64,000 nt of DNA. Source: Balamuthia mandrillaris (Eukaryota). The stretch spans positions 1 through 64,000 of the forward strand of contig JAVKOQ020000079.1 in assembly GCA_031835245.2 (NCBI GenBank). The letters run 5' to 3'. This document shows positions 2,877-51,870 of the stretch, piece after piece. Made by a program: the position numbers and the translations under genes. Within the stretch, counting starts at the first letter, position 1. Every line of letters begins with the position of its first letter. The notes under the pieces are model-generated. The model saw only the letters and a program-made list of their open reading frames with translations, was not told the DNA's origin and made no database searches.

Positions 2877-3027
2877 TTATGTCGACTTGTACATAATATT
2901 ATGTCGACAAATCAGATCCTAATTCGATCGATCCCGTAATTTCTATAAAATTTCCATACAAAATCTTTGATTTTTGATTGGCCTTCTTTTTGAATTGTTT
3001 TATCGGTGCAGAAAGAGAAAGAGGAAC

Positions 3028-4230
3028 ATGCCGACGAGCGAACCACCGCCTCCACCGCCCTCGCTCGCCCTTCTGGACTTGCCCTACGAGGTGCTGTGCT
3101 TGGTGCTGGAGTTCATCCCCGTGCGTGAGCTCCTCCGTGGCCCCGCGCTGACCTGCAGGCTCTTCCACCAAGCCGCCTACGAGGACCCCGCCTGGCGTCG
3201 CCGTTGCGAACGGGACCTCGGCATAGAGCAACCGGAAGGAGAAGAAGAAGAAGAAGGAGAAGAAGAAGAACCAGAAGAAGGGAAGTGGAGACGGACCTAT
3301 GCCCTGCACGCGGGGATGCCCTGGGACCCCAAGCACATCACCCTCTCCCATGCCGACCGGGCCAAGCTCTTGCTGGCAGCCGAGGAGGGAGGAGGGATCG
3401 GCCTCTCGTGCAATGGACCCAGCCTGGCGGAGCTCGGCGTGAACCTCTTCCTGGAGAACGCCCAACGGAGGGTCCGTTGGGGAGGCCCTCCCAACCACCT
3501 CTCCATCCGCAGCCAAGCCTCCTTTGCCGTGGGGAGGCACGCCTTTGAGTTCATCATACGCGGCAAGGAGGGCAACCATTTGTTCGGCGTGGGGCTCATT
3601 GATGAGAGTTGGGATTGCAGGCTGCATGCCCACTTGAAGAGCAAGATTGCCAGAAGTTGGTTTTGGTGGAATGCTGTTGGTTGTAAGTACGTTCTGTGTT
3701 CTTGTTCTTCTTGTTGTTGCTGTTCTGCTGCTTCTGCTTCTGCTTCTGCTTCTGCTTCTGCTTCTGCTTCTGCTTCTGCTTCTGCGAATTCTTAGGTTCC
3801 GCTTCGTCCGAAAACAAACAAAAGGCACACTATCGTAGGTCGCACGGATGAATATGGCAAACACATACGAAGAGAAGTGACCACCGCATGGGGTGCAGGC
3901 GATCGCTTGGGCGTTTTACTCAACCTCGATCCTCTTCCTCAACCACAAAAGGCATCCAAGAAAAACCTCAAACTGTTCTCCTTCAACAGAACCATTCACT
4001 TCTTCAAGAACGGAACATGGGCTGAGAGCCTCGCACTTCCAGACGACGTGAACCGTCTTTGGGCAGCTGTGAACCTCTATGGCGTTGGGGACTCGGTGGA
4101 GCTGCATCGCGTTCCAAAGGAACAATTTGAGGAGGCGTTGGATAAGGTGTGGCTCTCGGATCCCAAACAATTGGAACATTGTCTGACGGAGCAACGAATG
4201 AAGCTGAAGGAAGTCGGATGGAACAAGTAA
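3028..4230 (+). CDS. F-box protein with SPRY/B30.2-like domain, one repeat-filled intron (~3685-3830)
   Basis: LLDLPYEVLCLVLEFIPVRELLRGPALTCRLFHQAAYEDPAWRRRC is an F-box; WGAGDRLGVLLNL...IHFFKNG...LWAAVNLYGVGDSVEL is SPRY-like. Confidence 0.8.
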
Positions 4231-4258
4231 AGTAGGAACAAGTGAGAAAGGAAGAATA

Positions 4259-4294
<36 letters not shown>

Positions 4295-4599
4295 ATGAGA
4301 GAGAAGAATGAACAATCGTTTTATTCTGCATTCGTTGTATTGTATTCATGTTAGGTTATTTGCCTGTCTTTTCAACCGTAGAAAGTAGACCACCCCAACG
4401 ACGGACAATGAGAAGATGCTTTATCTTCAGAGCCACAGCAAGACCACGCATACAACACGCCTGCATCACTGATCTCATTGCTGCCCATATGCCCATCAAA
4501 GTTCATCTCATCCCTTTGTTTTGTTACAAAAGGTTAAAACAATGCCCCAGCTACTCTCCACCCGTCGTTCTGTCTTCTCTCATGGTTCTTTACATTACC

Positions 4600-5473: not shown

Positions 5474-5555
5474 GACGTCGTGACCGAGTGGTTAAGGTGA
5501 TTGACTAGAAATCAATTGGGCTCTGCCCGCGCAGGTTCGAATCCTGCCGACGTCG
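5474..5555 (+). tRNA. tRNA-Ser (anticodon AGA)
   Basis: Acceptor stem GACGTCG/CGACGTC, anticodon loop CT-AGA-AA, long variable arm, GGTTCGAATCC B-box, T-run terminator downstream. Confidence 0.97.
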
Positions 5556-5684: not shown

Positions 5685-8600
5685 ATGCACTCCTGTCGGC
5701 GGAGAGTATGCTTGGCTTGGGCGCTTTGCTGCTTGGTTTCATGGACTTGTTGCGGTTGGTGTGCGCGAGCTGTATCATCTCTCTCTTTTTTTTTTTTGTG
5801 GTTGTGTCCACTCACGAAAGAGACGCTTATATACCCAACAGAGGATATCCGTAATGTTCCGTCAGAATGTACCGCCTGTAACCTCAACACCTTCTTAAGT
5901 ACGATTATTTTTTCCTCTATATCGACTTATTCTATTTCGTTTCCTGTTTGAAGCTGTTCACTTTATTAAACTTCGATACCAGTGAGTCTGACCGATGCTG
6001 TTCGTTTGATGGTGCCTCCGGGCGCCTACGCATGGACAGTCGCCAACTATCCAACTCCAGTTACAATCCAGTTAACTTTCGAAAAGCCATTCTCCCAATG
6101 TTCTTCTTCTGATTTTAACCTCCACGACGAAACACAAAAAACAAAGAGGAACAGGAAACGAGCCTACGGAAGTTATGATAACGGGTTGTCTTTCCACAGG
6201 CGCTATCATGGCCAATATCACTTTGAACAATGTTTGGGTGCAAGGACCTTGTGTTCCGGTACCACTCTTACACGTCGATGGCCATTCGACGCTCTCCCTG
6301 GATAACGTGCACCTCCAAAACGAAGATGGAGCGGTCATTGTTATGGAAGCAGGGTCTTCCTTAGTCACGAACGATATCTTCATCGGCACGTCCGCTAATG
6401 CAGGTTTCTCTCGCTTATCCGTTCCTCTCTCCTCTTTTCCTCTCCGCTCTTCTCTCCTAAATGAAATATATAGTCAAACTGAATGGAGTGACATGGGTCA
6501 GCAATGGCGCTGTTAATGTAGAAGATAGCGTCAGTTCAGGTTCGCTTTCTGCTCTTTCTTCCTTTTATTTTTTTTTTTATTTTGGTGGCTTGGTTCTCCT
6601 CTTTCGCTTTTCTTCAGCGCTACCATCGCTTCTCTTCCTACGTACCTCTTCGCTTGACCTCCATGAATGCATTTGCCTCTTTACAGACAGTTATGCAGTC
6701 GGGGTTTCACAAAATTCCCTCTGGATGAGCAATGGTCCCGTTCATTTTCGCAACTGCAAGCCTTATGGTACTTGGTTCATTCTCTCCTTTATTACTTGCA
6801 CTTTTTCTTTGTTTTAAATCACATTTGGCAAAAGCTGTATTACTCGATGATGGAAGCGCATGGGCATCCAGCAATGAAGTAAGCTTTGAGAATTGTTCCA
6901 ATGGTACGCTTGTTGTTGTTTGCTTTCTAGAAAAGACGAGTTGGGTCTTACTATCCATCCTTTCAACAACAGCCGTAACACTTAATCGTTCGTCTACTTG
7001 GGAGCAAAATGGACTCGTAAAGTTTCTTCACAACGAAGCTGCCGTTGAGCTCTTTCTTGGTGAGAATTGTATTGCCCGTAAAGCAATTGTAGGATGTCCT
7101 TATTTGTTTTTTTTCACAGTTGATGTGCAGTCCTCCACGTGGCGAAGTAAAAGTTTGATAGAGTTCTATGACAACACGATCTCCTCTGGTTAGTATTTCT
7201 TCTTCATCTTCATTTTCTTTGTCATCGCCATCATCTTCTTGTTTTTGTTGTTGTTCTTATTCTTGTTCTTCTTCTTCTTGTTCTTCTTCTTCTTCTTCTT
7301 CTTCTCCTCTTCATTAGCTTTTATTGTTAACTCTTTTTCTTCTATACACAGGAGCCTACATCCGCTTGCAAAACTCAAACGCAAGCTTTCTGTACACGCC
7401 TTCCCTACCGCAAACGCCCAACCCGCCAGGCTTACTAGCATGCTTCTCCAGTACTGTCTATGCCCCACCAACAGACTGCTCCGCTTCCAGCTGCATAAAC
7501 TGTAACTTTATTCCCATTCCGCTCGTCGAATGGCAACGTAACCCACAGCACATGATGGTCTCCGACAAGAAGGGCACGAAGAAGGTGGTCTTCTACGAAG
7601 CAGGAGAGCAGCCATTCTTCCTTCACTTCAACCCTCTTCCCACAAACACGTTTCTGCTGGACGTTATGACAGAGAGCCTTGATAGAGATGATGGGTCCAT
7701 CTTCGTGAAGAACCAGAGCATTCTCGTTGAACCAAACTCGCCCAAAGCGCCAGAATTCGTGGTTGCCATAACAGATGCATCACCTACAACCGAGTTTCAG
7801 TTGGTTCTCAGACCTTCCAGTGAATACAACCCAACATACAGCCTGACATCCAACAACTACGCGGTGAACGTAGCGGTCACACCTCCCGTTCGTTTGCCAA
7901 CCGCTGCCATCCTCTTCCCAGAAGGCTCTCCCGACTTTATCTTTGCACCCACGGGAGGCAAGCAAGCAGAAGACATCTCAGCCACAGCCCTGCGGGCCTT
8001 CTTTTTGCAGCTGGTGGAAGTGGACTCTTCTGCCCAAACCGTGGTGACCTCTGTCTCCCTGGTGGACATGCTTTGGGAGAGCGTGGTGGATTCTTCTTCC
8101 GGAGAGATCATCTTCTCTGCCAACTTCACCGTCGAGGAGGAGGAGGAGGAGGAGGAGGAGGAGCGCCCTGTGGTCATGCAGGTGGTGTTCCAAGCGGTGG
8201 CAGGGGGAGAGGAAGTGGAACTTCCCAACGGTTCCCTCCTTGCCTTCCAGGAGGATGGCTTGAAGTGGACGCTGCTTTTGCAGGATTGGCCTTTCGTGCA
8301 TGAAGACAACCTCTTGGAACTTCACACCATTCTTCGAACGGGAGAGGAGCAGTGGTTGAATGTGCAAGAAGTTCACAGCGGAGGAGGAGGAGGAGGGGAA
8401 GGAGAAAAAGAAGAAAGAGAGTTTGTGTTGGAGGCGGAGGAGAGCCGAGCCTTGTTGCGAGTGTTGTCTGTGGCCTGGGCGGAGGAGGAGTTTGAAACAT
8501 CAAAGCAAGTGGGAGTGCGAGTGGAGCGATTGGAGGAAGCGGAAGCGGAAGCGGAAGTGGTGTTCACCCTGCCTCACTTCCACCATTCTCTGCGATACGA

Positions 8601-8820
8601 TCCCGATGTTTCTGTTTTGTTGACAGGGAGCGATGGAGGAGATGGGGAGGATGGGGAGGAGGAGGAGGATGAGGATGAAATGCTGCTGGCCATTGTGTTG
8701 CCGGTGGTGTTGGGCGTGGTGGTCCTGGTGGCAGTCGTGGTGACAGCGACGACTGTGGTCGTGAGGAAACGGATGAACGGCAGAACCATCAAACAGGGTG
8801 CTGCAGTCAACTTCGAATAA
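5685..8820 (+). CDS. Type I surface protein, paralog 1: signal peptide, short-exon beta-helix-like repeats, ComC-supersandwich-like domain, TM helix
   Basis: Hydrophobic N-terminus; repeated W-x-S-N-G-x-V micro-exons; last exon has KWTLLLQDWPF...LRYDPDVSVLL, acidic linker, TM segment and basic tail; homologous to 20641-23911 and 24199-27335. Confidence 0.75.
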
Positions 8821-11915: not shown

Positions 11916-13647
11916 CTTGGTTGAAGCTTGTGCTATCTGTGGTGTTTTACTGGGTTACTTATGGGCGACCTTTTTCTCGAAAGGGCTTACGTGAGAAAGG
12001 TGGTAATTAAAAGAGTCAATTAAACAACCAAGGAGGAACAGAAAAACAACAAGGAGAAACACAGGCTGCGGCGAACCGATGGTCACCGACGCCTTTCTTT
12101 TAAAAAAAAAATGAAGGAGAGGGAAACGTACAAATCACCTCTAGTTCCAGTTCTTTTGGTGGCACGCTTTGTTCGCGGAGTTACTCGATCCCGTTAGGTT
12201 CGGATCGCCGGTTTTTTTTTTTTTTCAACTCGATGGACGTATGACACTGCTGGGGTTCTTTTTTTTTTTGTGGCGTCAGTTCCTCCTGCAAGGTGTTTTT
12301 TTGCACCTTTCTCTCTCCCAGCTCTCTCACCACCCCCACACCCATAAAATCAAAAAAAAACGTAACAAACACACACATCAAACCATAACGCGCGCGCGGT
12401 GGTGACATCAAAACGTACCTCCTCCCCTTTCTCTCCTTCCCCTCTTTATTTTTATTTTATTTTTTGACGTGGGGGTGCACGTACGTTGGGTGGGTCTCAA
12501 GCGCGTGGCGTGGCGTGGCGTCGCGTCGCGTAGTTCGTTGGGGGAGGGGAGGCGTCGCGGCGTAATGTTACGCTACTTTTTTTTTTGTCCCTGTTCGCGG
12601 CTGCTACTGTTTTTTTTTTTAAGGCGCCGGTTATGGTTACCTTTTTTGGAGGGTTACTCTGAAGAGAGAGAAAGAGAGAGGAAAAAGGTCCGGTCGGTCC
12701 GGTCAGTCATTTGTCAGAAGAATGGAAAGAAAACACATGAACAACTCACAGAAAATACGTTTTGCAGGAGGAGGAGAGGGGCAAATAATTATACCGAAAG
12801 CAAAGCAAAGCGCAAAACAAAAACGGTTATGTTTTTGCAAGAACAAGAACAAAAAAAAAACTTGTCAAACCAACAACAACAAAGAAAAAACAGAAACAAA
12901 AGCATGGAAAGTCGAAAAAAAAAAATGGAGTGCTTGGTTGTAATGAGGATAAGGGGGGGAAGTGGAGGGGATTACCTTGGTAACGTTGTCTTTTGAAGCG
13001 ACCGTTTTTACGTGCAGGCCCCCTTTGTGAAGCTTTAGTGTTTTGGGGTAAACAGAACAAAAAATAATTTTTTTTTTTGAACGGCCAAAGAAAACGGTAA
13101 GAAAATGTTCCTATGTGCGCACCATTACACCTATCGCAGGAGAGGGGGGAAAAAATAATAGTACCTTGCAAACAGACCTGTAGCCAACGTACGGCGACCT
13201 TGCGATAACCAAGGAGCTGTAACCTCACCAAAAAATATATATATATATATCTATATCTTGGTGGTTACCTCCGCTTTTTTTTTTGTTTTTTTTTTTTCCC
13301 TTGTAACCTCGTTCCTCCTCTCTCCCTAAATAAAAATATCGAAACCAAAAACAAAAACGTTACCGCCTTTCCCCCCTGTACGTTGTCGAGGGTTATTGTA
13401 GTTTTTTTTTTTGTTTGACGTGGAGACGCGCTCTTTTTATGGGTCCTGAGTCGAGGGGTTTGCCGTTGCTCTCCCTCACGTCGTGTTCGAGTGGTGGAAA
13501 GTTGACAGAAAATCGAGAACATTCAAAATTTTGATCGACACCAAATCCGAAGAAAAAAGGACGAAAAGTGGAGATTCACGTGTCGTCATGATATATTAAT
13601 CGGGACGACATGATGGTTAAACAAACAACAACATAGCGAGAGGATCC

Positions 13648-15095
13648 TCAGTCCGAGTCGAGTAGGTCAACCACCACTGGAGCACTCTTTGTTCCGGGTG
13701 TGTTGATTGGTGGAGGGGCTCCAAATAGACGTCTCCGCTTGGTAACGTAAGCCGATGAGTCCTCGTCCGCTTCCTCATCCTCCTCGTCTCCTTCATCGCT
13801 CCAATCTTCGGTTTGCTTCCAGCTTTTCTTGTTGTTTGTCGATCGTTTTGAAGCCACACTTTTCTCTCTTTTCCTCTTTCGTTCCTCTTCCAGCTCCTGC
13901 TCCTTGGTCTGAAGGGACTGGCGCAATTCCGCAGCAATCCGGTCGCTCTCCTCCTTTTCCTTTTCCAAGTCCTCCTTCACGCTCTGCCAGTAGATTTCCT
14001 TCGTTCCTCTCTCCCGTTCCAGCTTCATCCTTGCTTTCTTTTCCGTTTGTGCCATTTCTTTTTTTTTTTGTTTTGTTTTTATGTTTTCTCCTTTCAGCCA
14101 CACCAAGATACAAAGATGAAGAAGGGAGAGCATAAACGGAGACAAGCAGAAGCGAAGAAGAAAAAGAAGCAGAAGAAGAAGAAGAAGAAGAAGAAGAAGA
14201 AGAAGAAGAAGAAGAAGAAGAAGAAGAAGAACAAGAACAAGAACAAGAAGAAGAACAAGAACAAGAACAAGAACAAGAACCACAGCAAGAACAAGAAGAA
14301 GAACAAGAAGAAAAAGAAAAAGAAAAAGAAGGAGAAGAAGCAGAAGAACAAGAAGAACAAGAACAAGAAGAACATACCTTGAGCCCTCTGCAAAAAGTTC
14401 TGCAGCCTTGTCGACTGTTTCGCCTGTTGCTGCAGGCCGGCCACATTATCGCTCACATACCTGCCCCACTGATCCATTTGCAGCCTCAACCGTCGGTTGG
14501 CATTGCTGAGCTCGGCGATGGTGCGCTCCTTCTCTCGCAGCTGGGCCTGCAGTTCCTCCTGCCCAAAGGTGTGCCGCTCGGCGAGCACCCTCTGCAGGCT
14601 CTCTTCCAGCGTGCGGATGCGCTCCTTGCGACTCTCCCCTTTGAGGAGGAGGCGCTCGATGTCGGTGAAGCACTCGCCGAGGAGGTCGCGGTAGCGGGCG
14701 GCTTGCTCGTGGGCTGCCTCGAGGGATCCCTTCAGGGCAATCACCACCTCGATGAGTTTGTCTTGAAACTGGCGGTCATGCTCCCTTTTTTCTTCTTCGT
14801 CTTCTTCTGTGTCATCCTCTTCTTCCAGCTCTCGTCGAAGAGATATTCTCCCTCCTTTCTTGAACACCCTTCTTCGAACGCTGCTGCTAGCTGCTCTTCT
14901 TCTTTGCTCTCCTGCCAGTCTGTCTTTCAGCTCCAAGAGGCCCTCGCGGATGACCTGCTCGCGTCTCTTCCGGCTTTCCTCGCTGAGGTTCTCCACTTCA
15001 AGCCTCAGCTCCTCGTTCTCCTCTTCCAAGTCCTTGAGCTTTGCCTTCACTGCCTTGAGCTCCTTGGCCACCCCAAAGTCTTCTCCGTATTCCAT
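13648..15095 (-). CDS. Coiled-coil protein, 2 exons (repeat-filled intron ~14055-14377)
   Basis: E/K/R/L heptad-rich exon 1 ends at a GTATG donor; exon 2 is EMAQTEKKARMKLERE...APVVVDLLDSD*. Confidence 0.7.
14147..14372. repeat. Intronic (AAG)n/(AAGAAC)n microsatellite
   Basis: Directly visible tandem tri- and hexanucleotide repeats. Confidence 0.95.
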
Positions 15096-15192
15096 TTTTT
15101 TCTTTCTTTTTTTTTTTGTGGAAAGCTTTGAAAAATAATTGGTTAAGAAATTTCATTGCCAATCATAAATCCAAAATAATGTCGACACATAT

Positions 15193-16454: not shown

Positions 16455-16599
16455 GGTTTATTATTTTTCTTTTTTTCTCACCACTGTGCCGAAAGAGTTG
16501 CCGTGGAGGGTGGTGTCGCTCTCTTCTTTTCTTTCTTTGCGCCTTTCTTCTTTACTTTTTCCTTAGCGTGCTCATTTGTTGCACCATTTCTGCAGGGTT

Positions 16600-16712
16600 T
16601 ATTTGTCGACAAATTGGCGCATACGTCAGCATTATGTCCACATAAAATATGACGTCAGGCCGGTTGTCTACACATAAACGATATGACGTCAGCCCAATGT
16701 GTCGACACAAAA
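16600..16712. promoter_or_regulatory. Bidirectional promoter between BUD31 and TRIP4 with two TGTCGACA and two TGACGTCA palindromes
   Basis: TGTCGACA at 16604 and 16700; TGACGTCA at 16650 and 16684; divergent ATGs at 16454 and 16820. Confidence 0.6.
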
Positions 16713-16736
16713 CATGCTTTAGTGAAGAAGAAAAGA

Positions 16737-16767
<31 letters not shown>

Positions 16768-16819
16768 AGGAACAAAGGTAAGGGAGACAGACACCACCGT
16801 TCGTACACACACCTGGCCC

Positions 16820-17000: not shown

Positions 17001-17041
<41 letters not shown>

Positions 17042-27335: not shown

Positions 27336-27599
27336 GGTCGAGTCGTTCGTTCGTTTATCTTGGGGCTTACTTTATTTTGTTATCGGGTAATGCATTACAG
27401 CGATTATATTATTTCGTTCGGATAAATGAATATATTCCACCCGGTTAAATTCTCGTACCTAAAATGGAGATATATTATGTCGACATATCTATTAAAAGAT
27501 AATCATCCGCATATTATTGTCGACATATTGCTGATAAAGGAAACTTTTAGTCAGAAATCGCAAGTCAGCTCGTTGGAACCGAGAAGAGTGCAGAGGATA

Positions 27600-35936: not shown

Positions 35937-36175
35937 GAAGAGGAGACAAACCAAGGAGTGTTCTTTGCTGTTTTCAAGTTTTCTTCTTTTGATTTCTTTT
36001 TCTTTTTCTTTTTCTTTTTCGGGTAAATTTTTGTCGACATTGTGTTGCTGATCGATCAAATGTCGACATAATCGTAAATTTATCATGTCGTCACGAAGAA
36101 ATTGCCTGTTATTTACTCTCATAAGAGAGGAACTCCATCCTTCTGTGCCTTAAGCCCCATCGCTTGCCCCGTGGA

Positions 36176-37565: not shown

Positions 37566-37637
37566 CAGAGGGAGAGGGAGAGGGAGAGAGGGAGAGAGCA
37601 CTTCTACTATTTGTCGACAAAAGAGAGAGAACACAAA

Positions 37638-39038: not shown

Positions 39039-39124
39039 CTTCTAATAAACCACACAACTTCTTTCTGTTTTGTTTTCTTGGTAATGCTTTTCTTTATCCA
39101 TAAAGTTTGTTGTTGTCTCTTTTA

Positions 39125-40219: not shown

Positions 40220-40532
40220 CGTTATCCGAAGGGTTAGCTCTGGTGTATGAAGTCGTGGCGGTGGTCGTCAAAGAGAAGAGGTAACGCAACGGAAGAGCAA
40301 CGTATTTTCTTGGCCGCTTTCTTCTGATTTTCTCGGTTGGGAAATGGAAAAAGAAGAAGAATGAAATCGAGATGACCCGATAATTACCAATTACGTCGCA
40401 TTTTTCCTTTTATTGATGTGATGACATCATCATTTTTTTCAAATCTCCAATCCGAAATCAAATAGCGGGACTCATTACAAGCCAGGCTCATAGCAGCGAA
40501 CAGCGGCCGAACATATAATGGTGACGTTATGG

Positions 40533-42197
40533 TCAAAAGTTGGTTTCCTTTCGGAAGAAAAACCTTTCAAGAGGAGGGGTACGCCGTTCTTTGCTGTCAA
40601 AGATGCCCTGCTTCACCCGGATGTGAAGAATATGGGCCACCTCTCTGGCCACGCTCGGAGGAAACTCCCCATCATTTTCGTTGCAGTGCAGATAAGGTTC
40701 AATGGAGCCTCTCACCCGAAACAGGCTTTTGCCCCAAAAGTTCTCCCGCAAGCGGTCCAGACGAGGGAAGCGGCCCTCCCACCTCGCAGCACTTGCAAGG
40801 AAAGGACCAAGGGCACGTTCTTCCTCCCATGCTGGGCTCTCCCTCGATGCCAACAAACGGGGCATCAACACCTCATTCATCGGTCCCTCCAACTCTTTCC
40901 GATGTTCGGTGATGAAACGCTTTGCATCCACACGCCGAGGTGCATCCTGTTGAACCGAAGAGAAAAGTTGAGGAAACTCATCCGTGTCCAAGGAGAACGC
41001 GTACTGGCAGTAGCCTTGCCACCGGAGGAAAGCATCCCAGTTCATGGCTTGCAGCATGTGCTCATGGGTCTCGTGCGTTCCTGGCACTTGAGTCTCCACC
41101 AATACCACCCGATACTTCAGTCCTGGGTGATCCCTAGCTAACCTCTCGCGAAGCTCTTCGGCCGAAGGTAGCTCTCCTGCTTTGGTCAGGCCTGTGAAGA
41201 GGTTGATGAATATGCGGTCCACTCCTATGACGTCCAACATCCACAGCAACCACAGCTCGTCATCAGGTGTCCAGCTGTACTTCTTCACCACAAAACCACA
41301 AACGGTGACGTTTTGGGATTCGGCCCCTGTCGCTCTCTCGATTGGCAATGGCTCGTTTCGCGCGTGGTACCAAGGAGCCTCAGGAAAGACCGGTGTCTCT
41401 TGTTCTGTGGCGGTTGACAACTTTGCTGAGGGTAGTACTGGTAATGGGCTCCAAAGCGTAGGAAAGTGTAGAACATCTTCCACTGGAAATAGAGCAACGT
41501 CTTTCGTAGCATGAACAGCAAAATGTGCTGGTTTGCATCTTCTCCTCCCATCCATAGGTGCAGAAGAAGCAGTCTCACGACATAATGCAGCTTCAACAAG
41601 GGCAGGTGGCATGTCAAACATGCAACGGATTACAAAATCCATCCAGGTGGCTCCATGGTTGTGTCGGAAGGCAAACCCCATGGGTTGTTGAGCGAAGCAC
41701 TGCAATGCAGGTACCTTTTCCACCCAGAAGCTATCTTGGGTGCCAATTGGTGGCGAGGGGTAGGTCCAAAGCTCTACCTTTGAGAAGAGGAAATACTTGG
41801 TGGCGAACGTGACATTGTCGTGAATGACAGCGTGGAACTGAAAGATCTTTTTGTGGACAGGTTGCGCGTTGGTGCCATTCACAGGAAACGTCCTAAGCCG
41901 AGGGCCAGCTTTGAGCTGTTCTGGCGGAGGGAAGGCGCGGTGATCTTCCGCGGCGGATACCACACGAAAGAGCCCGTTGGAGGAGAGTCGCTCACCGTCT
42001 GTCCATGAGATATGGAACAGCGGTCCGGTAAACGATACAACCCCTTCTTTTTTCGCCGCGACCGCTTCTGCTTCTTTCTCGTCGGTGGAGGACGGCTGAA
42101 GGTGGGGACCAGAAGGAGCGAAATAGAAGTAAAGACAGGCGGTAATGCTGAGGAGGGATAATCCAATTATCATTCCTCGCCCCGCATTACTTTTCAT
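40533..42197 (-). CDS. Type II membrane glycosyltransferase-like protein (GT-A/GT92-like), intronless
   Basis: N-terminal TM anchor; WLLWMLDVIGVDRIFI; YAFSLDTDEF (DxD motif); WGKSLF; paralog of 59111-60748. Confidence 0.65.
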   Translation of the reverse strand: MKSNAGRGMIIGLSLLSITACLYFYFAPSGPHLQPSSTDEKEAEAVAAKKEGVVSFTGPLFHISWTDGERLSSNGLFRVVSAAEDHRAFPPPEQLKAGPRLRTFPVNGTNAQPVHKKIFQFHAVIHDNVTFATKYFLFSKVELWTYPSPPIGTQDSFWVEKVPALQCFAQQPMGFAFRHNHGATWMDFVIRCMFDMPPALVEAALCRETASSAPMDGRRRCKPAHFAVHATKDVALFPVEDVLHFPTLWSPLPVLPSAKLSTATEQETPVFPEAPWYHARNEPLPIERATGAESQNVTVCGFVVKKYSWTPDDELWLLWMLDVIGVDRIFINLFTGLTKAGELPSAEELRERLARDHPGLKYRVVLVETQVPGTHETHEHMLQAMNWDAFLRWQGYCQYAFSLDTDEFPQLFSSVQQDAPRRVDAKRFITEHRKELEGPMNEVLMPRLLASRESPAWEEERALGPFLASAARWEGRFPRLDRLRENFWGKSLFRVRGSIEPYLHCNENDGEFPPSVAREVAHILHIRVKQGIFDSKERRTPPLERFFFRKETNF

Positions 42198-42409
42198 CCC
42201 TTTTCGGTCCGTTGTTGTGCCTCTTCTTCGATTGTTTTTTTTTTTTCTTTCTTGTTCCAAGTTTCCATCGCTTCGCATTACTGCAAAAAAAGGAAAACAC
42301 CGATCCACACGTTTTAAATTCATCCAATCCAATCTGCTAACGAATTTCAAACCACCAATCAAAAATCAAAAGTTGGTCCGTTTTTTTACCTTTTTGGTGT
42401 TTGTTGAAA

Positions 42410-43708
42410 CTAAAGAGAAAGGAGTTCTTCCAGAGGGAACAACAGAGTTGCCGTTGATGTTGCTTCTTGCTTCTCGGCTGTAGCGACGTGGGGTGAGGAA
42501 TTGGCAGCTGCTTCGGTGATGATAGGAGACGGCGCAGCCAGGTCAACCGCTTCCTGCGATGGCGGTAGCAATGCAGCCTCCATAGGTGTCACTATCAACA
42601 TATCGTCTTCATCAACAGCAAGCGACGAAGAAGGAAGCAGCTGTTGTTGTGGTGATGGTTGTTCTTGTTGTTCTTGCTGTTGGTCTTCTGTGATGGAAGG
42701 GGCAACAACGTTGGCGAGCTCTTGGCCGGTTGCAAAGGCAGGAGGTGGCTCGTAATGCTCCACTATTGGAGGAGGTGGTATTGGCTCCAAATAACGAGCT
42801 GTTATTATTTGTTTTTGGTTTGTTTGTCAATTTTTAAACGAAGGAAAAAAAAAGAAGTAAAGAGAAAGAAGTAAGAAGAAGAGAGATAAGTATGTACCTG
42901 TGTGCATTGCATCTAAAGCTGGAGGCAAGTCCAGCTTGGGAAAGGTTTGTCCGGGCAACATGCCCAAAGGTGAGTCGTGCCACACCTGTTTAGCCAGTTG
43001 CCACCCACTTGAAGAAGAAGAATCTGAAGGAATAGCAGAAGTGAAAGAAGAAGCAGAAGAAAAAGACGAAGACGTGCTGTTCTCCGTTACTGTTTTTTGT
43101 TTCTTTTTCGCTGTTTTTTTGGAGGAGACTCCGATGAGACGCTCGTAAGCTTGCAACGCTGCTGCGAGATCTTGCTTTGGTTGGGGAGCTAAGGAAGGAG
43201 GAGCGGGTGTGTCTGTGCGAAGAGATAAAATGCGGTCGATTTTGGATCGAAGCACTGGCATCGTTTCATCTTGGACAAAGCCAACCAGTTGATAGGCCAA
43301 AGTTACGTTTCTGTTTGTTGTTTAGAGAATGAGAAAAAAAGGAAAAACGGATAAGAAAGAGAAAAGACAACGATAGAGAAAGGAAAAGGAGCGAGAAGAA
43401 AGGAGGAGGAGAAAGAGTAGAGTACCGTTCAATAGGATTCCGTAGGAGAGACTGGATAAGAATGGCAAATGGGGCAATGTTGGACTGTTGCAGAGAGGTA
43501 AGGTAATAAGACTTGTCCAAAAGGAACTGAACCCAAGAATGTAACATGCTTAGTCGCCACTCTTCTTGTTTTTCTTGTTCTGGAGGCATCTCTTCTGATT
43601 CTTCTTCTTGGTCATCTGATACATGTTAATTTCCGGGTATCAAACAAATGAAGAAGGAATGGGATAGAAAGAGAAAGAGAAAGAGAAACAACGAAAGAGA
43701 AACGACGA

Positions 43709-43755
<47 letters not shown>

Positions 43756-44627
43756 AACCATAACGTTTCTCAGCAAGCCGCTTGACAATAGCTAAGAATA
43801 GGATAGCAACAAAGTCAGGCCAACAGGAATTGAAGCTCTGTAATGCGGCTTCCCACAGTTGCGTCAATGTATGAAACACAGCCTCCACTGTGAGTCCCGC
43901 TCTAATAATACCAGCATTAGAATCTTCTTCAAGGGATGACGGAAGAAGGAAGCAGAAGAACGTACAAAGGAGGTGGAACAAGAAAACCATCATCCAACAG
44001 AGTAGGAACCAGATAATCCTTCACTCTATGGGTGGTAGTCGCCAAAATGATGGTCTTCAAACACATTCTAGCCGCCCGGCTTTTCTCCTTCAACAACGCA
44101 TTCTGTCGTGACAACGAAGAAGTCGCAGCAGAAGTTGACTCCAGCACCAATCGAAGGTGTTGTATCTCGGTCTTCAAGGATTGAAAGCTCTGCAACAGGG
44201 CACGAAGGTTATGCCGAGAGCAAGCCAAGCGATGGTGCTGCGGTTGCCAATAGCGCTCGTCCAACCAATGCAAGGCCGTTGATGCAGCCGACCTCAGAAT
44301 GGACAACGCGGGGAGGCGGCTGTGAGTGGCTCCGTGGCGCAGGTCTACCAGCAGCTGCGGTAGGCCCATCCGAGCGGCGATCTGTCCGACGGAGGTGGCG
44401 TAGGCGCCGCGTTGGGCAGAGTCCGCGAGGCCGTTGACGAAGCGGGTTAGGGCCATGGAGTACATTAGCTGAAGTTCTTTGGAGGAGCGAGTGGCAGGAG
44501 TGCTAAAAGTACGTTATTTGCATTGCATTTAGCGAACGTGAAGTGTAGAGAGCAGCAGCAAAGCAGCGGAGCAGAGGGCAGGCGGGAGAGAACGGACAGA
44601 GCGGAGAGAGCAGAGAGAGCAGAGAGA

Positions 44628-44668
<41 letters not shown>

Positions 44669-45100
44669 CAGAGAGAGAGACTGTGAAAGAAGAACATACG
44701 TGTCGACGAGTTGGATTTCTACAAGACTAGCGGTAGCCTCCACCGACACCGGAACCTTTCCTCTACTGCCCCACGCTCGGATCTTCAAAAGGAATCCAAA
44801 AAAAAAATGAGTCATGTGCACTCCCTCAAAGGAAAAAAAACACACACATACCCGTTTCACGGAGAGCGCTTTGAGCTCAGCGTCAGAGCCGAAAAGTCCG
44901 CTGTAGACCTGCTGCCACTCGGACCACGTTGCCCAAGGCACGCTACGCACGCAGGTGATGCCTTTGGCTATTTCTTTGCTGGCGGGGATGTGCATGCCCT
45001 TCTTCAGCATTTTTCTTTTCCGCGCCCCCACCGCGGGGAGCACCTTGCCTTGCGCCTCATCCCAAATGGCCTCCACCAGCGCCTTGCTCCCCTCGTTCAT
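42410..45100 (-). CDS. LAS1: Las1 pre-rRNA ITS2 endoribonuclease, multi-exon
   Basis: VPWATWSEWQQVY, AWGSRGKVPVSVEATASL, YSMALTRFVNGLAD, LVDLRHGATHSRLP (HEPN RHxxxH), HSPLGMLPG-type C-terminus. Confidence 0.92.
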
Positions 45101-45132
45101 TTTTCTTTCTTTCTTTCCTCTTTCCTCAGACG

Positions 45133-45247
45133 TGTCGACATGGTTATACATTATGTCGACAAATTTTAATGTCGACACTGAAAATAAGTGTCGACTTTCC
45201 ACGTTCGGTCAAACGCTGACGAAAGCGGACATCGTTACAGTCGACAG
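45133..45247. promoter_or_regulatory. Cluster of five GTCGAC-core palindromes in the divergent LAS1 promoter
   Basis: TGTCGACA at 45133, 45154 and 45170; TGTCGACT at 45189; AGTCGACA at 45239. Confidence 0.6.
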
Positions 45248-45581
45248 AAAATATTCCTACCGCTTCCTTTTTCCTTTTTCCTTCGTATTTGCTGCTGATT
45301 TTTTGACGCGCGGAACCAAAAGAAAAAAAAACCAGGGAGAGTGACCCACGCCGCTTCGCCGCTCCCCCCCCTTTTTTTTTCTCTCCTTCTCGTTGGCTTG
45401 TCCTCTCGCTCTCTTTTTTCTTTTTGATTTATTTATTATTTTAAAAGTACGTCTCTTGCTTAACACTACCCGCTTTTTTGTTTTGTTTGCCTCACTCGCT
45501 GATTCTCTCTCGTCTCGCGTTCCCCCTTTGTTTTTTTTGTTCTCACAAAAATCTCTACTCAATCGACCACAAAAAACAAAG

Positions 45582-46490
45582 ATGGAAGTAGTGAAACCTT
45601 ACTTGGATGAGTGCCTAAAATACGGCCAGTGGGCGTTGGAGCAGCTTCAGCCCTACTTCGCTCAGTTGAAGGCTGAGTACTTGCCCTACCGCCACCACTA
45701 CACTCCCTATTTCAAGGCCGTCGGCTTGGTGGACCTCGCCCCCGAGCACGAGATTCTCGTCCTCAGTGGCCTCATCTCCTTTGTATTGCTGATCTTCACC
45801 ATTTTGTTCTGGCGACTCCTTTTCTCTTCCTCCTCCTCCTCCAAGAAGCAGAGCACCAAGGGCAACAGCAACACCAAGAAGCAAGCCGTTGCTGCATCTC
45901 CCTCGAAGAAAGCTGCCGCCAAGAAGAAGGCCACCGCCTCCAAGAAGAGCAATGACAGCGCGCCTGCCACCCCCAAGAAGGCCGAAGCCCAGAAGAAGAC
46001 CTCTCCTTCTTCCGAGAAGAAAGCCACCACCGCCGCTGCCAAGAAGAACAACACTGCTAACGCTAAGAAGCAACAGCAGAATAACAACGCAAAGAAGCAG
46101 CAGCAGCAAGAGCAGGAGCAGCAGACTAACAAGAAGGAAAGGAAGGCGGTCTTCCTGGGCATGGACGTCGACGACGGTGCTCAATACGGAGCCGAGGAGC
46201 ACACCGGAGGCACCCCCGTGCCAGCTGCCGCTGCCACCACTGGAGGCAAGAAGAAGCAGCAAAAGAACGCCAACAAGAAGGGCGAGAAGGCCGCCGCCAA
46301 GAAGGAAGAAAAGGCCAAGAAGGAGGAGTCCGCCGAGGAGGAGGATGATGGCTTCTTGACCCCTCCCAGCCAACGCCGACGCTCCGCCCGGAAGAACAAG
46401 GGACAGCCCCCCGAGTACCTCTCTCCTGGCGGCAAGATGGTGCAGCTCACCTCTCCTCGTCAACAACGTGCGGCCACCTCCTCTCCCTAA
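45582..46490 (+). CDS. Single-pass membrane protein with Lys/Ala-rich tail
   Basis: TM ILVLSGLISFVLLIFTILFW; strong GC3 codon bias; intronless. Confidence 0.75.
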   Translation: MEVVKPYLDECLKYGQWALEQLQPYFAQLKAEYLPYRHHYTPYFKAVGLVDLAPEHEILVLSGLISFVLLIFTILFWRLLFSSSSSSKKQSTKGNSNTKKQAVAASPSKKAAAKKKATASKKSNDSAPATPKKAEAQKKTSPSSEKKATTAAAKKNNTANAKKQQQNNNAKKQQQQEQEQQTNKKERKAVFLGMDVDDGAQYGAEEHTGGTPVPAAAATTGGKKKQQKNANKKGEKAAAKKEEKAKKEESAEEEDDGFLTPPSQRRRSARKNKGQPPEYLSPGGKMVQLTSPRQQRAATSSP

Positions 46491-46625
46491 AAAATTAAAG
46501 TCGTACTTTTACTTGCGAAGAACAGAGCAACAAACGCTTTCTTGGTGTCTCTCTTCTTTGTTGCTTTTGTTGTTGGAATGCAAAGTGAAGATATGTTTCC
46601 TGGTTGTTACGCCGCATTCAACGGA

Positions 46626-46697
46626 AGCCCCATGGTGTAGTTGGTAACATGCGAGGTTCTGGTTCTCGCGCCCTCAGTTCGATTCTGGGTGGGGCTG
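46626..46697 (+). tRNA. tRNA-Gln (anticodon CTG)
   Basis: 72-nt cloverleaf: AGCCCCA/TGGGGCT acceptor, CGAGG-TTCTGGT-TCTCG anticodon arm, CTCAG-TTCGATT-CTGGG T arm; T-run downstream. Confidence 0.9.
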
Positions 46698-46821
46698 CAT
46701 CTACATTTTTTGTTCTTTTTTTGTTTGTCTTGTCTTTTGTTCTTTTTTTTGTTTGTCTTCGTCGAAAACATTCGTTCTGTTGTCCAACGTTCTCATTCAT
46801 CTCTTCATCGTTCTCTTCTTC

Positions 46822-48262
46822 TCAAGGAACATAATAAAGGACCTTATTTTTACCATCGAGTGAAGGTACTTCAGTCAAGAGAATCCGTTGTGGGTCCTAT
46901 AGGAGGTGTGTTTTTGGAGAATAAGATAACGAGAACGATGGTGGTTGTTGTTGGTTGGCATGGTTTGGTAACAAACCTTTGCGTGCAAGTATTGTAATAG
47001 TTGTTGATAGCTCTTCACGGGTTGGCCGTTGGGCAATCGGCGGTGAGGAAACTGATGATAGTACGTGCAACAAGGAACCACGGCAAAGGCTTTGTTGCTT
47101 TTTTTTTTTGTCGTTAGAATAGGCAACGCATAGAACAAGAAGCTGCAGAAACAAATGAAGATACAGAACAAAAAACAATAGCAAAAACAAAAAAACAAAC
47201 GTACTGCTCTAAAGCAAAGTCCACGATGGCCTCAGCGGCTTGGTCAGGATGCATTCCGACCACCACAGAGCACTCTTCTAAGACTCGTCTGAAGTTATTC
47301 CAGTCCAACGTTTCCTTTGCCTTTTCCACTTCTTCCAACTCCTCTTTGCTGAACGATTCGCTAGCATGTTCTTCCTCTTCCTCTTCTTCCTTTTGGATGT
47401 CGTTGTTGTCCTTGTCTTCTCTTATTTGAATGGTGTCGTTTTCTTTCTCCTCGGTTTCTTCTTCGTTTTGTGTCCGTGTCGTTGTATGTATGTTCGTTGC
47501 TGTTGAACTGTTGCTGTTGTCTCTTTGCTTCACAAAGCGATAGCCATCCTCCGCCAACAAGCGTCCTTCTTGTTCCACCTGTTTCTTCGCAACCAGCCCT
47601 TTCTCCGTCCACAAAACCGATTTGGCTTCCTTCAAAGCACTCTTCATCCTCAACTCGTTCGCTCTTCCTTCGTCCTCTCCTGTTGTTTGTTGCCACAACT
47701 CTCTTGCGAAGAACAACCGAAAGTGAGCAGGCTGCTGAACCTCCTCCGCACTTACGGGCGGCACCTCCGTGTCCAGGTAAGCTCTAAAGGGAGGAGCGCA
47801 GCGGTGGTAGACGCCATAGAGAAGGCGTCTCTGGTAGTGCTTCAGCTCGAGGGGACGAGGCTCCACGACGGTGCAGCTCACCCCATTCAGGTTTACAAGC
47901 TGAAAGGAGAGCTCTCCCTTGCCTCCCGCTACCTCCAGCACGCCTGCACCTTGCAGCAACCGCTCGCGCCCAAAGGTGTCTATCAACCAGCGCCGAAAAC
48001 AATTGGCCTTGTTCTTGTTCCTCACCTTCTTTCTTCTCTTCTTTGGCAGGGCACCACCGGTCGTTTGGGCCGTCTTTGCGGTCGTTGTTGGCGTTGTGGT
48101 GGTCTCTTGACGCAGCCGGGAGAGCTCCTCCGGGGCAGGATGCCTGAACTTGCACTCGGGGCCGAAGCTGCAATGCCCACCGAGCCTCAGCCAGTGGCGA
48201 CAAGCCGCCCGGAGCTTCATTGCAGAGGAGGAAGCATCAGCAGGGTCCTCCCTTTGTTGCAT
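46822..48262 (-). CDS. CCCH zinc finger plus SAM-methyltransferase-like protein, 3 exons
   Basis: [58 protein letters not shown]; final exon [24 protein letters not shown]. Confidence 0.8.
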
Positions 48263-48298
48263 TTCTTTTTCTTTTTCTTTTTCTTTTTTTTTTTGTAG

Positions 48299-48485
48299 AC
48301 CCCACCAATGCACATTGCCCTCTCTCCGTGATGTTGGCCGGCGGAGCCGAGGCATGCATCAGTCCACTTTCAATGGCTGGTTTCTGTAGGATGAAAGCGC
48401 TGTCCTCCAAGTTTAGCGACACCCCTGAAAAGGCCTCTCGTCCCTTTGATAAGGCTCGCGATGGTTTTGAAATAGGAGAAGGCAG
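48299..48485 (+). pseudogene. Isolated fragment of beta-ketoacyl-ACP synthase (FabF/OXSM type)
   Basis: [52 protein letters not shown]; no other KAS exons recognised in the window. Confidence 0.75.
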
Positions 48486-49331
48486 GTGTTATCTCTCTCA
48501 GCCCAATCAACCATGTGCTGTCGCTGCCTCTACCCACCAGGACCGAGTCTTTGCTTTGCAACCCAATTTTCGCTCTCGGGTCTCTTTTCTTTCGTTCTCT
48601 CGTCTTGCATCGTACATCTCTCCTCTCTTGTCTTTCGTTCTCGCAAGAGCTGCGCTGATAAAGAGGAACAAGCAAAGGCGCTGAACACCATGAAATGTTG
48701 CAGTATTATTCTGAAGCCAACTTGGTTTCTCAAAAGCCTTCTTCCAAGCAACAGCCACAAGGACAAAAGGAAAACGGTCCAGTCCAATAACAACAACAAC
48801 AAGAGTTACGTGGCTCATCCTCTTCCTCCTCCTTTGTTTGTTTGGAGGAACTGGCTCTGTCTCTTCCTTGCTCCTTATGTTCAGCGGAACTTCCGGCCTC
48901 CCCTTCTTCCTTTGGTTGTTTGGAGGAACTTCCTTCTTCACTTCCTTCTTTCTGTTTTTGTTTGGAGCTTCCCTCCTTCTTCTTTTCTCTTTTGCTTTCC
49001 GCTCCACCCGCCAGCCCTTTCTCCACCCGTATAACGGCCTTTTGAGGGAGAGCGTAGTCGCTTAGCATTTTGCTGCTCAACAGCGCGCGTCTATCATGGT
49101 ACAAAACTTGTTCGTTCTCTTCTATCCCGGTTTCCTGTTTTTTTTTTTTAAAAAAAGTAATTAGAGTTTGGCCAAAGCTATAAAGAAAGAAAAAAAAAGC
49201 GTTACGTAGAAGATTTGCTCTTTCAGCTCGATGATGCTGAGGTCATCATCGACAAAAAGCGGGACGTCAGTCCAGCCGGAGGAGGCCGGAAAGCGAAGCA
49301 ACAGCTTTGCTCTTCCTTTCTTTTTGTTCAT
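48370..49331 (-). CDS. Ubiquitin-like domain protein with charged C-terminal extension, ~3 exons (3' end uncertain)
   Basis: Manual splice: [86 protein letters not shown] aligns by eye to the ubiquitin pattern. Confidence 0.6.
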
Positions 49332-49567
49332 TCCCTGATGTTCGTCTTCACCGCTTCAAGTCCCAAATTGTGTTTCGCGTAACAGTAAAAATTGACCAAA
49401 AAAAGAAATAATTCATTTATTTACATCATTACGTCATGATCATCTTAACAAGGAATTTAATGACGCAAGCTTCAAAACCTGACGCACACGTCAGCAGCTG
49501 TGTATGTGACATCACCCTTCTCCCTAGAAGGAAATCTTGACGTAATGTTACAAACGGTAACAGAAAG

Positions 49568-51749
49568 ATGAAGAGACCCGCAGCAGCAAAGAATGGAGAT
49601 GGGAAGCACGGCCCCGCCAACACCGCGAGCGCAACCGTGCCGGCAAGGACAGGATGTCGCCGACGTCGGCGGGCCATGACAGTGGTCGGACAAGGCACCG
49701 TCCAAATGGAGCTCTCGGACCCTCGCTTCGTCTCCACCATTCACGCCGTCTTTCAATTCGCTGCCGGCTCCGCACTCCCTCCTCGCTCCGTCGTTGAAGA
49801 ACGCGTCCGCAAAGGTTCTCTTCCACTTCTTCTTCTTCTTCTTCTTCTCCTTCTTCTTTTTGCTTATTCCTTTTATTGTTTGTAGTCTTCCTACCACACC
49901 TTCGCTTCCGGTCCCGAGTCATCCTGGAGAAGGGCCGTGGCTACTGGGAAGAGGTCGACAACATGGATCTCTCTAGACACCTCTTTTACTCGCGGCTGCC
50001 TTTGCCGGGAAGCCCGCAAACCTTGGACCACCTGGTGGAAACAATGCTCGTGCGCCAGATGGACTTTAGCCGACCCGTTTGGGAGGTGCATTTCTTGTCT
50101 GGCTTTTTTGCTGGGGAGGGCGAGGAGGAGTCGTTTGCTTGCGTGGCGCGCATCCACCATGCCATTGGGGATGGCAACAGCTTAGTCCACCTTCTTTTTC
50201 AGCTGTTGGACCCTCCTTCCTCCCCTCTCTCCGCTTCTTCTGCCTCTTCTACTTCTGCTTCTGCTTCTGCTTCTTGTTCTTCTTGTTCTTCTTCTTGTTC
50301 TTCTTCTTCTTCTTCTTGTTCTTCTTCTTGTTCTTCTTCTTCTTCTTCTTCTTCTTCTTCTTCTTCTTCTTTTTCTGCTTGTTCTTCTTCTTCTGCTGCT
50401 GCTGCTGCTTCTGCACCTTCTACAGACAAACAACGAAAACAACGACCTTCTCCATCTTCTTCTGCTTTGTGGCGAAAACTGGTTTTCTTCCCGGTGGAAC
50501 TGATGGACAGAGGGACAGAACTGATGTGCAGTTTGTGGACGTGTCTATGCCTTCCTCTCTTTCCCAACGATACTCCCACTAGAATGAAGCTCGCTACTCC
50601 ATATCACCTCAGCACCACTCGACGAGTTGCTTGCACTAAAGCCTTGCCTTTGACCGAATTTAAACGAATGAAGAACGAGACATCGTTAGATAGCAACACG
50701 CCAAATACCACCATCAATGATCTATTGCTCGTGTTGTTGACAGGTTCCATCAGGAGATATCTTTTGGCAAAGAAAGATCCAGCAGTCATGTTGTCAACGG
50801 AGGAAGGAGGAGAGAAAGGAGGCACCGATACTTCGATTCTGTTGCGCGGATTCTTTCCGTTGGACATTCGGTCATTTGTGGGGCGGCGACGACTCGATTC
50901 AGAGATGGTGGAGCTTGCTAACCAGTACGCTTATATTCTTCGTCTTTTGTTTTTTCTCATAGCACTTCTGTTTCTTGTCTCTTATCCCTTTCTTTTGCTT
51001 CGTTTTTTTCTGCTCCGCAAGCAAAGATGGACAGTGGTGCCCTTCTCCTTTCCCATTCATCTCTCCGACCGCATTGAAATCCTTCGCACCTGCAAGCAAC
51101 AAGCCGATCAACTGAAACGCTCTACCGTGCCCATCATCCTACGTTACATCCAAGTAGTTGGCCGAACTCTTCTTTCTCATCACCTGATGGAACGTCTGGT
51201 CATGAGTCTGTTCAGCCGGTTCACGATGATGATGACTAACGTGATAGGCCCCTCGGTGGCGATGAGCCTATTTGGAGCTAAAGTGCACAAGATGATGTTC
51301 TACGTTCCAGCTGTGGTCGGCTCCGTCTTTACCTTCATCAGCTATGATGGCAAAGTAACCCTTGGCTTAACAGGTATGTTTGTTTTTTCGATTGGATGAA
51401 AGATCCTTCTGTGCATTACTTTCTTCTGCATCCTTCTCTTATCTTTACTTCTCTGCTCTATCTGAACAAGTTTATTTTGAATCAAACCACAACCACAGCG
51501 GACCCATCGGCGATTCCCGATCCAGAGTTTTTCATCCAGTGCTTGGAGGAAGAGTTTGATGACCTGAAGCACGACATCAAAAAACACCGAAAACGAACGA
51601 CAAACGCAAAAGAGCCAACACCAAACCAAACTCCCTCGTCGCTGTTGTTCGGTTGGGCGAAACACCTCCTGTGCATCACTTTCTTCTGCCTCCTCCTTCT
51701 CTTCTTCACTTTTCGACTCGTGGAGATAATTTCTTTATTTCGCCAATAA
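49568..51749 (+). CDS. Wax ester synthase / diacylglycerol acyltransferase (WS/DGAT), multi-exon
   Basis: DFSRPVWEVH, RIHHAIGDG (HHxxxDG), TINDLLL...SIRRYL, TNVIGP, ISYDGKV. Confidence 0.9.
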
Positions 51750-51870
51750 TTTTTTTGGTTTGTCGACATTTCGCCACTAAATTGTTGATTACTAATAATT
51801 TATTCGGTTTGTCGACATTTCTACACTAAATTGTTTTTTGCCAATAATTTATCCGGTTTGTCGACTTTTT
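51745..51870. repeat. ~49-bp tandem repeat (about 2.6 copies), each unit carrying GGTTTGTCGAC
   Basis: AATAATTT..GGTTTGTCGACATTTC..CACTAAATTGTT repeated; cores at 51761, 51810 and 51859. Confidence 0.85.

What the first reader, a model, noticed from the sequence alone, without database searches (positions are those of the whole stretch)
2880..51870. Palindromic TGTCGACA motif marks gene 5' ends across the window: candidate general promoter element
Seen: perfect TGTCGACA at 2902, 15180, 16604, 16700, 27478, 27518, 36032, 36061, 37612, 45133, 45154, 45170, 51761 and 51810. All 14 lie within about 30-620 bp upstream of a start codon, often paired in divergent promoters and with AT-rich flanks. 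About one copy of a given 8-mer is expected in 64 kb at uniform composition, and I noticed no perfect copy in coding exons. Inference: the site of a dimeric transcription factor for housekeeping genes (BUD31, TRIP4, LAS1, XPO7); the central CpG may be methylation-sensitive.
Basis: partly seen in the sequence, partly recalled or inferred. Interest (0 to 1): 0.7.

Follow-up and report, generated by a model that had tools for sequence, protein, structure and literature searches.

The report
Palindromic promoter word in Balamuthia amoeba
The 8-letter palindrome TGTCGACA occurs 14 times in this piece of the amoeba Balamuthia mandrillaris genome, always just in front of predicted gene starts (12 of 27 genes) and never inside a predicted gene, and is likely the docking site of a paired gene-activating protein resembling the fruit-fly DRE promoter element, but it is not a universal promoter signal.

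Summary
Observation confirmed: 14 exact copies at the stated coordinates versus 0.78 expected. The window is Balamuthia mandrillaris. The copies form 8 clusters, all in gene-upstream intervals that make up 15% of the window, with none in the other 54 kb. It is the top 8-mer of those intervals and beats the best palindrome of 300 shuffles. 'General' is wrong: 8 of 20 upstream intervals and 12 of 27 hand-called genes carry it; several others carry TGACGT- or CCAAT-type words. Half-sites, DRE, hDRE and ARF/DREB words are not enriched, so the whole dyad matters. Best reading (inferred): the site of a homodimeric promoter-proximal activator working like DRE/DREF. The word equals human hDRE half-sites in fly DRE geometry, but family membership is untested. 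I found no report of it in amoebae in ten paper searches. This scan noted the same octamer before only in four other genomes, in bacterial or plasmid settings. Real, apparently unreported, familiar in kind.

The parts
2880..2909 (.). Cluster 1: perfect copy 2902-2909 plus 7/8 copy 2880-2887, between divergent NMO (-, ATG 2792) and F-box gene (+, ATG 3028)
15180..15187 (.). Cluster 2: single perfect copy 84 bp upstream of an unnamed gene (-, ATG 15095), 5 bp past the annotated BUD31 stop; CCAAT words between it and the ATG
16604..16707 (.). Cluster 3: perfect copies 16604 and 16700, 7/8 copies 16635 and 16665, alternating with TGACGT words in a ~30-35 bp repeat unit, between divergent BUD31 (-, ATG 16454) and zf-C2HC5/TRIP4-like gene (+, ATG 16820)
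27478..27525 (.). Cluster 4: two perfect copies 40 bp apart, 142-182 bp upstream of a membrane-protein gene (-, ATG 27335) whose two look-alike genes in the window lack the word
   Evidence: paralogy read by eye
36032..36093 (.). Cluster 5: perfect copies 36032 and 36061, 7/8 copy 36086, between divergent TrkH gene (-, ATG 35830) and F-box/ankyrin gene (+, ATG 36176)
37612..37619 (.). Cluster 6: single perfect copy 18 bp upstream of the second F-box/ankyrin gene (+, ATG 37638)
45133..45246 (.). Cluster 7: perfect copies 45133, 45154, 45170 and 7/8 copies 45189, 45239, between divergent LAS1 (-, ATG 45100) and a Lys-rich gene (+, ATG 45582)
51738..51869 (.). Cluster 8: 49-bp tandem repeat, three units carrying perfect copies 51761 and 51810 and 7/8 copy 51859; first copy lies about 12 bp after the WS/DGAT stop, 556-605 bp upstream of the exportin ATG (52374)

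Best explanation
TGTCGACA, with A/T-rich flanks, lies only in gene-upstream DNA of this Balamuthia window and is likely the binding site of a homodimeric transcription factor that would activate one class of promoters (here 12 of 27 predicted genes) from near the start site, in either direction. Shown: the count, the exclusive location in divergent and tandem intervals, the need for the whole dyad, homotypic clusters of 1-5 copies at unfixed spacing, and local duplication of some copies. Inferred: each subunit reads one TGTCG half-site, the halves overlapping at the central CG; clustered sites in AT-rich DNA keep the promoter open and recruit the initiation machinery without fixed position or orientation, as DRE/DREF does at broad Drosophila promoters; one cluster serves both genes of a head-to-head pair. 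A BED-finger protein is my leading single guess (about 0.2-0.25), because the word is the human hDRE half-site in fly DRE geometry.
For: 14 copies vs 0.78 expected. All 8 clusters fall in 9,913 bp of upstream-type intervals, 15.5% of the window, chance 3e-7; expected there 0.12-0.54 copies by Markov orders 1-3; top-ranked 8-mer, 8 intervals vs 0 elsewhere. Shuffling each upstream interval 300 times gave at most 1 interval with the word, and the best of all palindromes with 2 or more G/C reached at most 5 intervals vs 8 observed. TGTCG alone: 43 upstream hits, of which 35 are TGTCGA; ARF-type, RCCGAC, DRE, hDRE and spaced TGTC-n-GACA words show no enrichment, so the dyad as a whole is the unit. 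7 of the 9 upstream 7/8 variants lie inside clusters of perfect copies. Four clusters sit in head-to-head intervals that contain no 3' end. Sequences around different clusters differ by eye. DRE and hDRE sequences and roles from PMC7471704 and PMC6179265 (passages); DRE's weak positional bias at broad promoters from PMC2728527 (passages).
Against: One 64-kb window and 8 independent clusters. Gene starts are hand-read; only NMO and BUD31 were checked against annotated proteins. The preference for upstream over convergent intervals is weak: 8 of 20 vs 0 of 8, Fisher p 0.04, but p 0.17 once interval length is allowed for. Two clusters start 5 and about 12 bp after a neighbour's stop codon, so they probably also lie in 3' UTRs. 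The copy 18 bp before ATG 37638 could be inside a 5' UTR. Carriers are functionally mixed, and two of three look-alike membrane-protein genes lack it. The word matches neither DRE nor hDRE exactly. No conservation in a second amoeba could be examined.
Confidence: 0.62

Rival explanations
1. It is a transcription-factor site, but of a condition- or stage-specific regulon (for example growth versus encystment), not a constitutive promoter opener.
For: Only 12 of 27 genes carry it; carriers include 3 of 3 F-box genes and 1 of 3 look-alike membrane-protein genes. At 16604-16707 it alternates with TGACGT words, as in a composite regulatory module.
Against: A 44% share of genes is large for a stage regulon (inference); all four recognisable RNA-processing or nuclear-export genes in the window carry it.
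Confidence: 0.2
2. It is a chromatin-boundary or replication-origin word (BEAF-32-like) that lies at promoters because intergenic DNA is short, without driving transcription itself.
For: Orientation-free, clustered, in AT-rich DNA, sometimes directly behind a stop codon. BEAF binds part of DRE (PMC7471704, passages). In Acanthamoeba domain borders coincide with expressed genes (PMC9528979, passages).
Against: 0 of 8 convergent intervals carry it; 8 clusters in 64 kb is dense for origins (inference).
Confidence: 0.1
3. It is a relic of a small transposon or a by-product of local duplication in AT-rich DNA, with no function.
For: Copies within clusters 3, 4, 7 and 8 arose at least partly by tandem duplication (49-bp, ~35-bp and shorter units).
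Against: Duplication does not explain 8 separate clusters with different surroundings; shuffles of the same intervals give at most 1; no element-like inverted ends beyond low-complexity matches within the 8 regions searched.
Confidence: 0.04
4. It is a genome-wide DNA-level word or an RNA-level 3'-end or UTR signal rather than a promoter site.
For: The scan noted a dense genome-wide use of the same octamer in a bacterium (e1-3087598, unchecked). Two clusters abut stop codons.
Against: 0 copies in 54 kb of gene bodies and convergent intervals; four clusters in head-to-head intervals with no 3' end.
Confidence: 0.04

Closest known systems
Drosophila DRE (TATCGATA) read by DREF
   Same: 8-bp palindrome centred on TCGA, same dyad geometry, weak positional bias, found at promoters of proliferation and housekeeping genes (PMC7471704, PMC6179265, PMC2728527; passages).
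   Different: Positions 2 and 7 differ (G/C versus A/T). TATCGATA itself occurs once in the window and not upstream. Reader, TRF2 link and cell-cycle control are untested here; the host is an amoebozoan.
Human hDRE (TGTCGYGAYA) read by ZBED1
   Same: Same TGTCG and CGACA half-sites; promoter-proximal at ribosomal-protein and histone genes (PMC7471704, passages).
   Different: hDRE is 10 bp with the central TCGYGA reported as important; here the half-sites overlap at CG. hDRE words: 0 upstream, 1 elsewhere.
Vertebrate CGCG element (TCTCGCGAGA)
   Different: Different sequence; sits in CpG islands of a methylated genome. No methylation data here.
ETTIN/ARF3 secondary motif (TGTCGACA) and AP2-type GTCGAC words
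   Same: The identical octamer is cited as a secondary in-vitro motif of the plant B3-domain factor ETTIN (PMC6918188, one passage); a GTCGAC-centred palindrome is listed for Plasmodium AP2-I (PMC6631176, table passage).
   Different: ARF half-sites (TGTCGG 1 upstream vs 13 elsewhere; TGTCTC 6 vs 26) and RCCGAC (6 vs 35) are not enriched. Whether Balamuthia has such domains was not testable.
Medusavirus immediate-early palindromic promoter motif
   Same: A palindromic upstream motif read in an amoeba nucleus (PMC8557863, passages).
   Different: Unrelated 24-bp sequence; TGTCGACA is not enriched around giant-virus relatives of the window's ankyrin gene (12 seen, 12.6 expected, 53 loci).

Membership tests
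Promoter-proximal transcription-factor site (general class) | Over-represented beyond composition | tested here: met
Promoter-proximal transcription-factor site (general class) | Confined to gene-upstream non-coding DNA | tested here: met
   14 of 14 copies, 0 in gene bodies; gene models hand-read
Promoter-proximal transcription-factor site (general class) | Prefers 5' over 3' intergenic DNA | tested here: inconclusive
   8 of 20 vs 0 of 8 intervals, p 0.04; p 0.17 after length correction
Promoter-proximal transcription-factor site (general class) | Lies upstream of mapped transcription starts | tested here: inconclusive
   375 and 413 reads laid, no start pile-ups
Promoter-proximal transcription-factor site (general class) | Bound by a protein; needed for expression | not testable with these tools
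   no binding or reporter data
General (universal) core promoter element | Present at most genes at a fixed position | tested here: not met
   12 of 27 genes; 18-605 bp from ATG; spacings not helically phased
DRE/DREF-ZBED1 system | Sequence matches DRE or hDRE | tested here: not met
   6 of 8 letters match DRE; DRE and hDRE words absent from upstream intervals
DRE/DREF-ZBED1 system | TCGA-centred dyad, position-free, often clustered | tested here: met
DRE/DREF-ZBED1 system | Read by a BED-finger protein with hATC dimerisation domain | not testable with these tools
   no genome held; no BED domain among the 36 window ORFs scanned
DRE/DREF-ZBED1 system | Targets enriched for replication, ribosome and housekeeping genes | tested here: inconclusive
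   4 of 12 carriers are of that kind; the rest are mixed or unknown
ARF (B3) or DREB/AP2 monomer site | Non-palindromic half-sites also enriched | tested here: not met
Methyl-sensitive CpG element | CpG methylation present and blocking binding | not testable with these tools
   CpG o/e only; PMC12695648 passages for Acanthamoeba
Transposon relic / MITE | Shared sequence beyond the 8-mer between dispersed copies, terminal repeats | tested here: not met
   flanks differ by eye; repeats found only within clusters; no formal cross-cluster alignment was run

The most novel reading that the evidence does not exclude
Balamuthia runs a large share of its genes from a DRE-like promoter class read by its own transposase-derived BED-finger dimer, so the DRE/DREF way of driving housekeeping promoters exists outside animals, by deep ancestry or by repeated domestication of hAT transposases.
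Probability: 0.2. Interest if true: 0.7.

Novelty: new member of a known kind. Interest (0 to 1): 0.42.

Why it matters
A 2026 review says no gene-expression tools exist for B. mandrillaris and that the DNA elements needed for expression in these amoebae are unclear (PMC13315211, passages). A simple, strong promoter word, next to TGACGT and CCAAT classes, gives a first testable piece of promoter grammar for this lineage and a handle for improving gene-start annotation. In kind, palindromic housekeeping-promoter sites are well known, so the surprise is moderate.

Tried and rejected
No whole genome is held, so no genome-wide count. Run search: no RNA holder listed among indexed runs. Reads from X6 and X7 laid on 32400-50200 were too few (375, 413) to show starts; the X4 contig piece over 44690-46654 has 30 other letters and 31 gap letters, but only 40 of 376 differences were shown, so motif conservation between strains could not be read. 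Start sites and strain variation for 14400-17400 remain unexamined. Metagenome scan with an NMO alignment returned 80 loci of at most 46% identity and none recognisable as amoeba; they hold 9 copies vs 9.3 expected in 747 kb, useful only as a negative control. Giant-virus mimicry: 12 vs 12.6 in 53 loci, 11 vs 8.0 in the 15 loci from genomes over 1.8 Mb; whole-record count possible for 1 of 5 handles, no excess; rejected on this sample. Helical phasing of spacings: not significant, p about 0.10-0.5. Rfam: only 5 tRNAs. Two of three homologue searches gave nothing: a low-complexity query and a query in the wrong frame, my error. Paper searches: listings only unless named elsewhere; the octamer as a substring is mostly cloning-primer noise (797 papers, 40 listed), as a whole word it is in 3 papers, none on amoebae. 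PMC9528979 has no 'motif' hit and PMC9283445 no 'promoter' hit. Two papers sought by recalled id were not held. No supplements were read; they could hold an unlisted motif. Own-findings look-ups for this genome and for amoeba promoter motifs found nothing relevant.
Full report
Observation. TGTCGACA occurs exactly 14 times, at the coordinates given; 100 dinucleotide shuffles give 0.78 on average and at most 3. It is the commonest palindromic 8-mer in the window, and the 11 other palindromes of the same composition occur 0-1 times. Of 28 GTCGAC sites, 14 have both flanking T and A.

Source. The large exon of the nitronate monooxygenase gene is 100% identical to a Balamuthia mandrillaris protein (P0001), the next named hit being Acanthamoeba at 56%. 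No whole genome is held, so all counts are for this window.

Gene context. I read 29 genes by hand from the sequence, scanned 36 ORFs against Pfam and fixed 27 start codons. The names TRIP4-like and XPO7-like rest on a zf-C2HC5 and on IBN_N plus CRM1_C hits together with recall. All 14 copies lie in divergent or tandem intervals, which total 9,913 bp; none lies in the other 54,087 bp. They form 8 clusters; chance of 8 of 8 in 15.5% of the window is 3e-7. Expected copies in those intervals are 0.12-0.54 by Markov order 1-3, and the word ranks first among 8-mers there. Shuffling each interval 300 times put the word in at most 1 interval, and the best palindrome of any shuffle reached at most 5 intervals against 8. 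Distances to the start codon are 18-605 bp. The copy at 15180 was in doubt: 3 of 9 splice combinations of the last BUD31 exon would cross it, but the annotated protein P0124 ends in the acidic frame that stops at 15195-15193, and a distant relative (P0125) has a similar acidic tail. One search used an earlier stop for BUD31, which makes the upstream total slightly too large and the test conservative.

Limits of the observation. Eight clusters, not 14 events: 51761, 51810 and the 7/8 copy 51859 belong to a 49-bp tandem repeat, and shorter duplications appear in clusters 3, 4 and 7. The word marks 8 of 20 upstream intervals and 12 of 27 genes, so it is not general. Versus convergent intervals (0 of 8) Fisher p is 0.04, but 0.17 when length is allowed for; the argument against a 3' signal rests on the four head-to-head clusters. 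Several promoters without it hold TGACGT clusters (13 upstream vs 11 elsewhere, p 1e-5) or CCAAT words.

Anatomy. Symmetrised flanks are A/T at 82, 93 and 82% of positions -1 to -3. Single substitutions upstream number 9 against 19 elsewhere; 7 of the 9 are inside clusters, 4 of the 9 change only the outermost base. Half-site words, ARF and DREB words, DRE, hDRE and spaced dyads are not enriched. Spacings of 16-50 bp show no significant helical phase. This is what a homodimer with overlapping half-sites and position-free action would leave; that step is inference.

Attempts at outside evidence. RNA reads were too shallow to show starts and strain differences were listed only in part. No amoeba locus came from metagenomes. 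Control loci show no excess: 9 vs 9.3 in 80 metagenome loci, 12 vs 12.6 in 53 viral loci around ankyrin-gene relatives. So the enrichment is not a generic feature of the octamer, and host mimicry by giant viruses is not seen in this sample.

Mechanism. Most likely (0.62) a homodimeric promoter-proximal activator binds clustered sites in AT-rich DNA and opens one class of promoters, serving both genes of head-to-head pairs. Rivals: stage-specific regulon (0.2), boundary or origin word (0.1), duplication or transposon relic (0.04), genome-wide or RNA-level word (0.04).

Comparison. It works most like Drosophila DRE: an 8-bp TCGA-centred palindrome with weak positional bias (PMC7471704, PMC6179265, PMC2728527; passages only). 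Its half-sites are those of human hDRE. It matches neither consensus, and the defining reader could not be looked for, so it is not filed as a DRE. The same octamer is a cited secondary motif of plant ETTIN (PMC6918188, one passage) and a GTCGAC palindrome is listed for Plasmodium AP2-I (PMC6631176, table passage), so B3 or AP2 readers remain possible, though their half-sites are not enriched. Methylation sensitivity has a model in the CGCG element (PMC6192621, passages) but no support here: CpG o/e is 0.80 overall, and 5mC in Acanthamoeba marks transposons (PMC12695648, passages).

Novelty. Ten searches of the open library showed no report of this word in amoeba promoters; subscription papers and supplements were not seen. 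The scan's earlier notes on the octamer concern four other genomes in bacterial or plasmid settings (unchecked). Verdict: real, a new member of a known kind, interest 0.42.

Noticed in passing
window 2792-2894 (-): This NMO copy lacks the start codon of its close relative P0121: the frame upstream of the annotated ATG still encodes the conserved N-terminal ~25 residues (also seen in Acanthamoeba P0003) but has no ATG there, so it is N-truncated or starts at a non-AUG codon. The equivalent start would lie about 35-40 bp from the 2902 copy.
   Followed up: partly
window 16620-16700, 40390-40530, 49420-49545, 12400-12480: A second promoter class with clustered TGACGT (CRE-like, name recalled) and TGAYATCA words, mostly at promoters lacking TGTCGACA; 13 upstream vs 11 elsewhere.
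   Followed up: partly
window 42325-42360, 15140-15165, 58970-59010, 40440-40455: CCAAT words clustered upstream of several starts.
   Followed up: no
window 15193-16454 (-): The BUD31/G10 gene is divergent from the animal type and has a long acidic tail; a similar form exists in P0125. It may be a second BUD31 paralogue.
   Followed up: partly
window 36176-39038: Two intronless F-box/ankyrin genes with relatives in giant-virus contigs at about 28-60% identity; both carry the promoter word.
   Followed up: partly
window 11916-13647: A 1.7-kb interval without a called gene, with poly-T/poly-A runs, a GCGTG repeat and palindromic words; possibly a long 5' UTR with introns. No Rfam match.
   Followed up: no
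window 5474-5555, 46626-46698, 58061-58131, 58790-58860, 60805-60875: Five single tRNA genes (Ser, Gln, three Pro) between protein genes; none of the four intervals holding a tRNA carries the perfect word.
   Followed up: no
window 5708-8820, 20641-23911, 24199-27335: Three look-alike multi-exon membrane-protein genes with no Pfam hit in their large exons; only one has the word upstream.
   Followed up: no
L099, L101, L138, L166: Small viral contigs with 5-7 copies of the octamer within a few hundred bases of AT-rich DNA, mixed with related words; unrelated to the amoeba finding.
   Followed up: no
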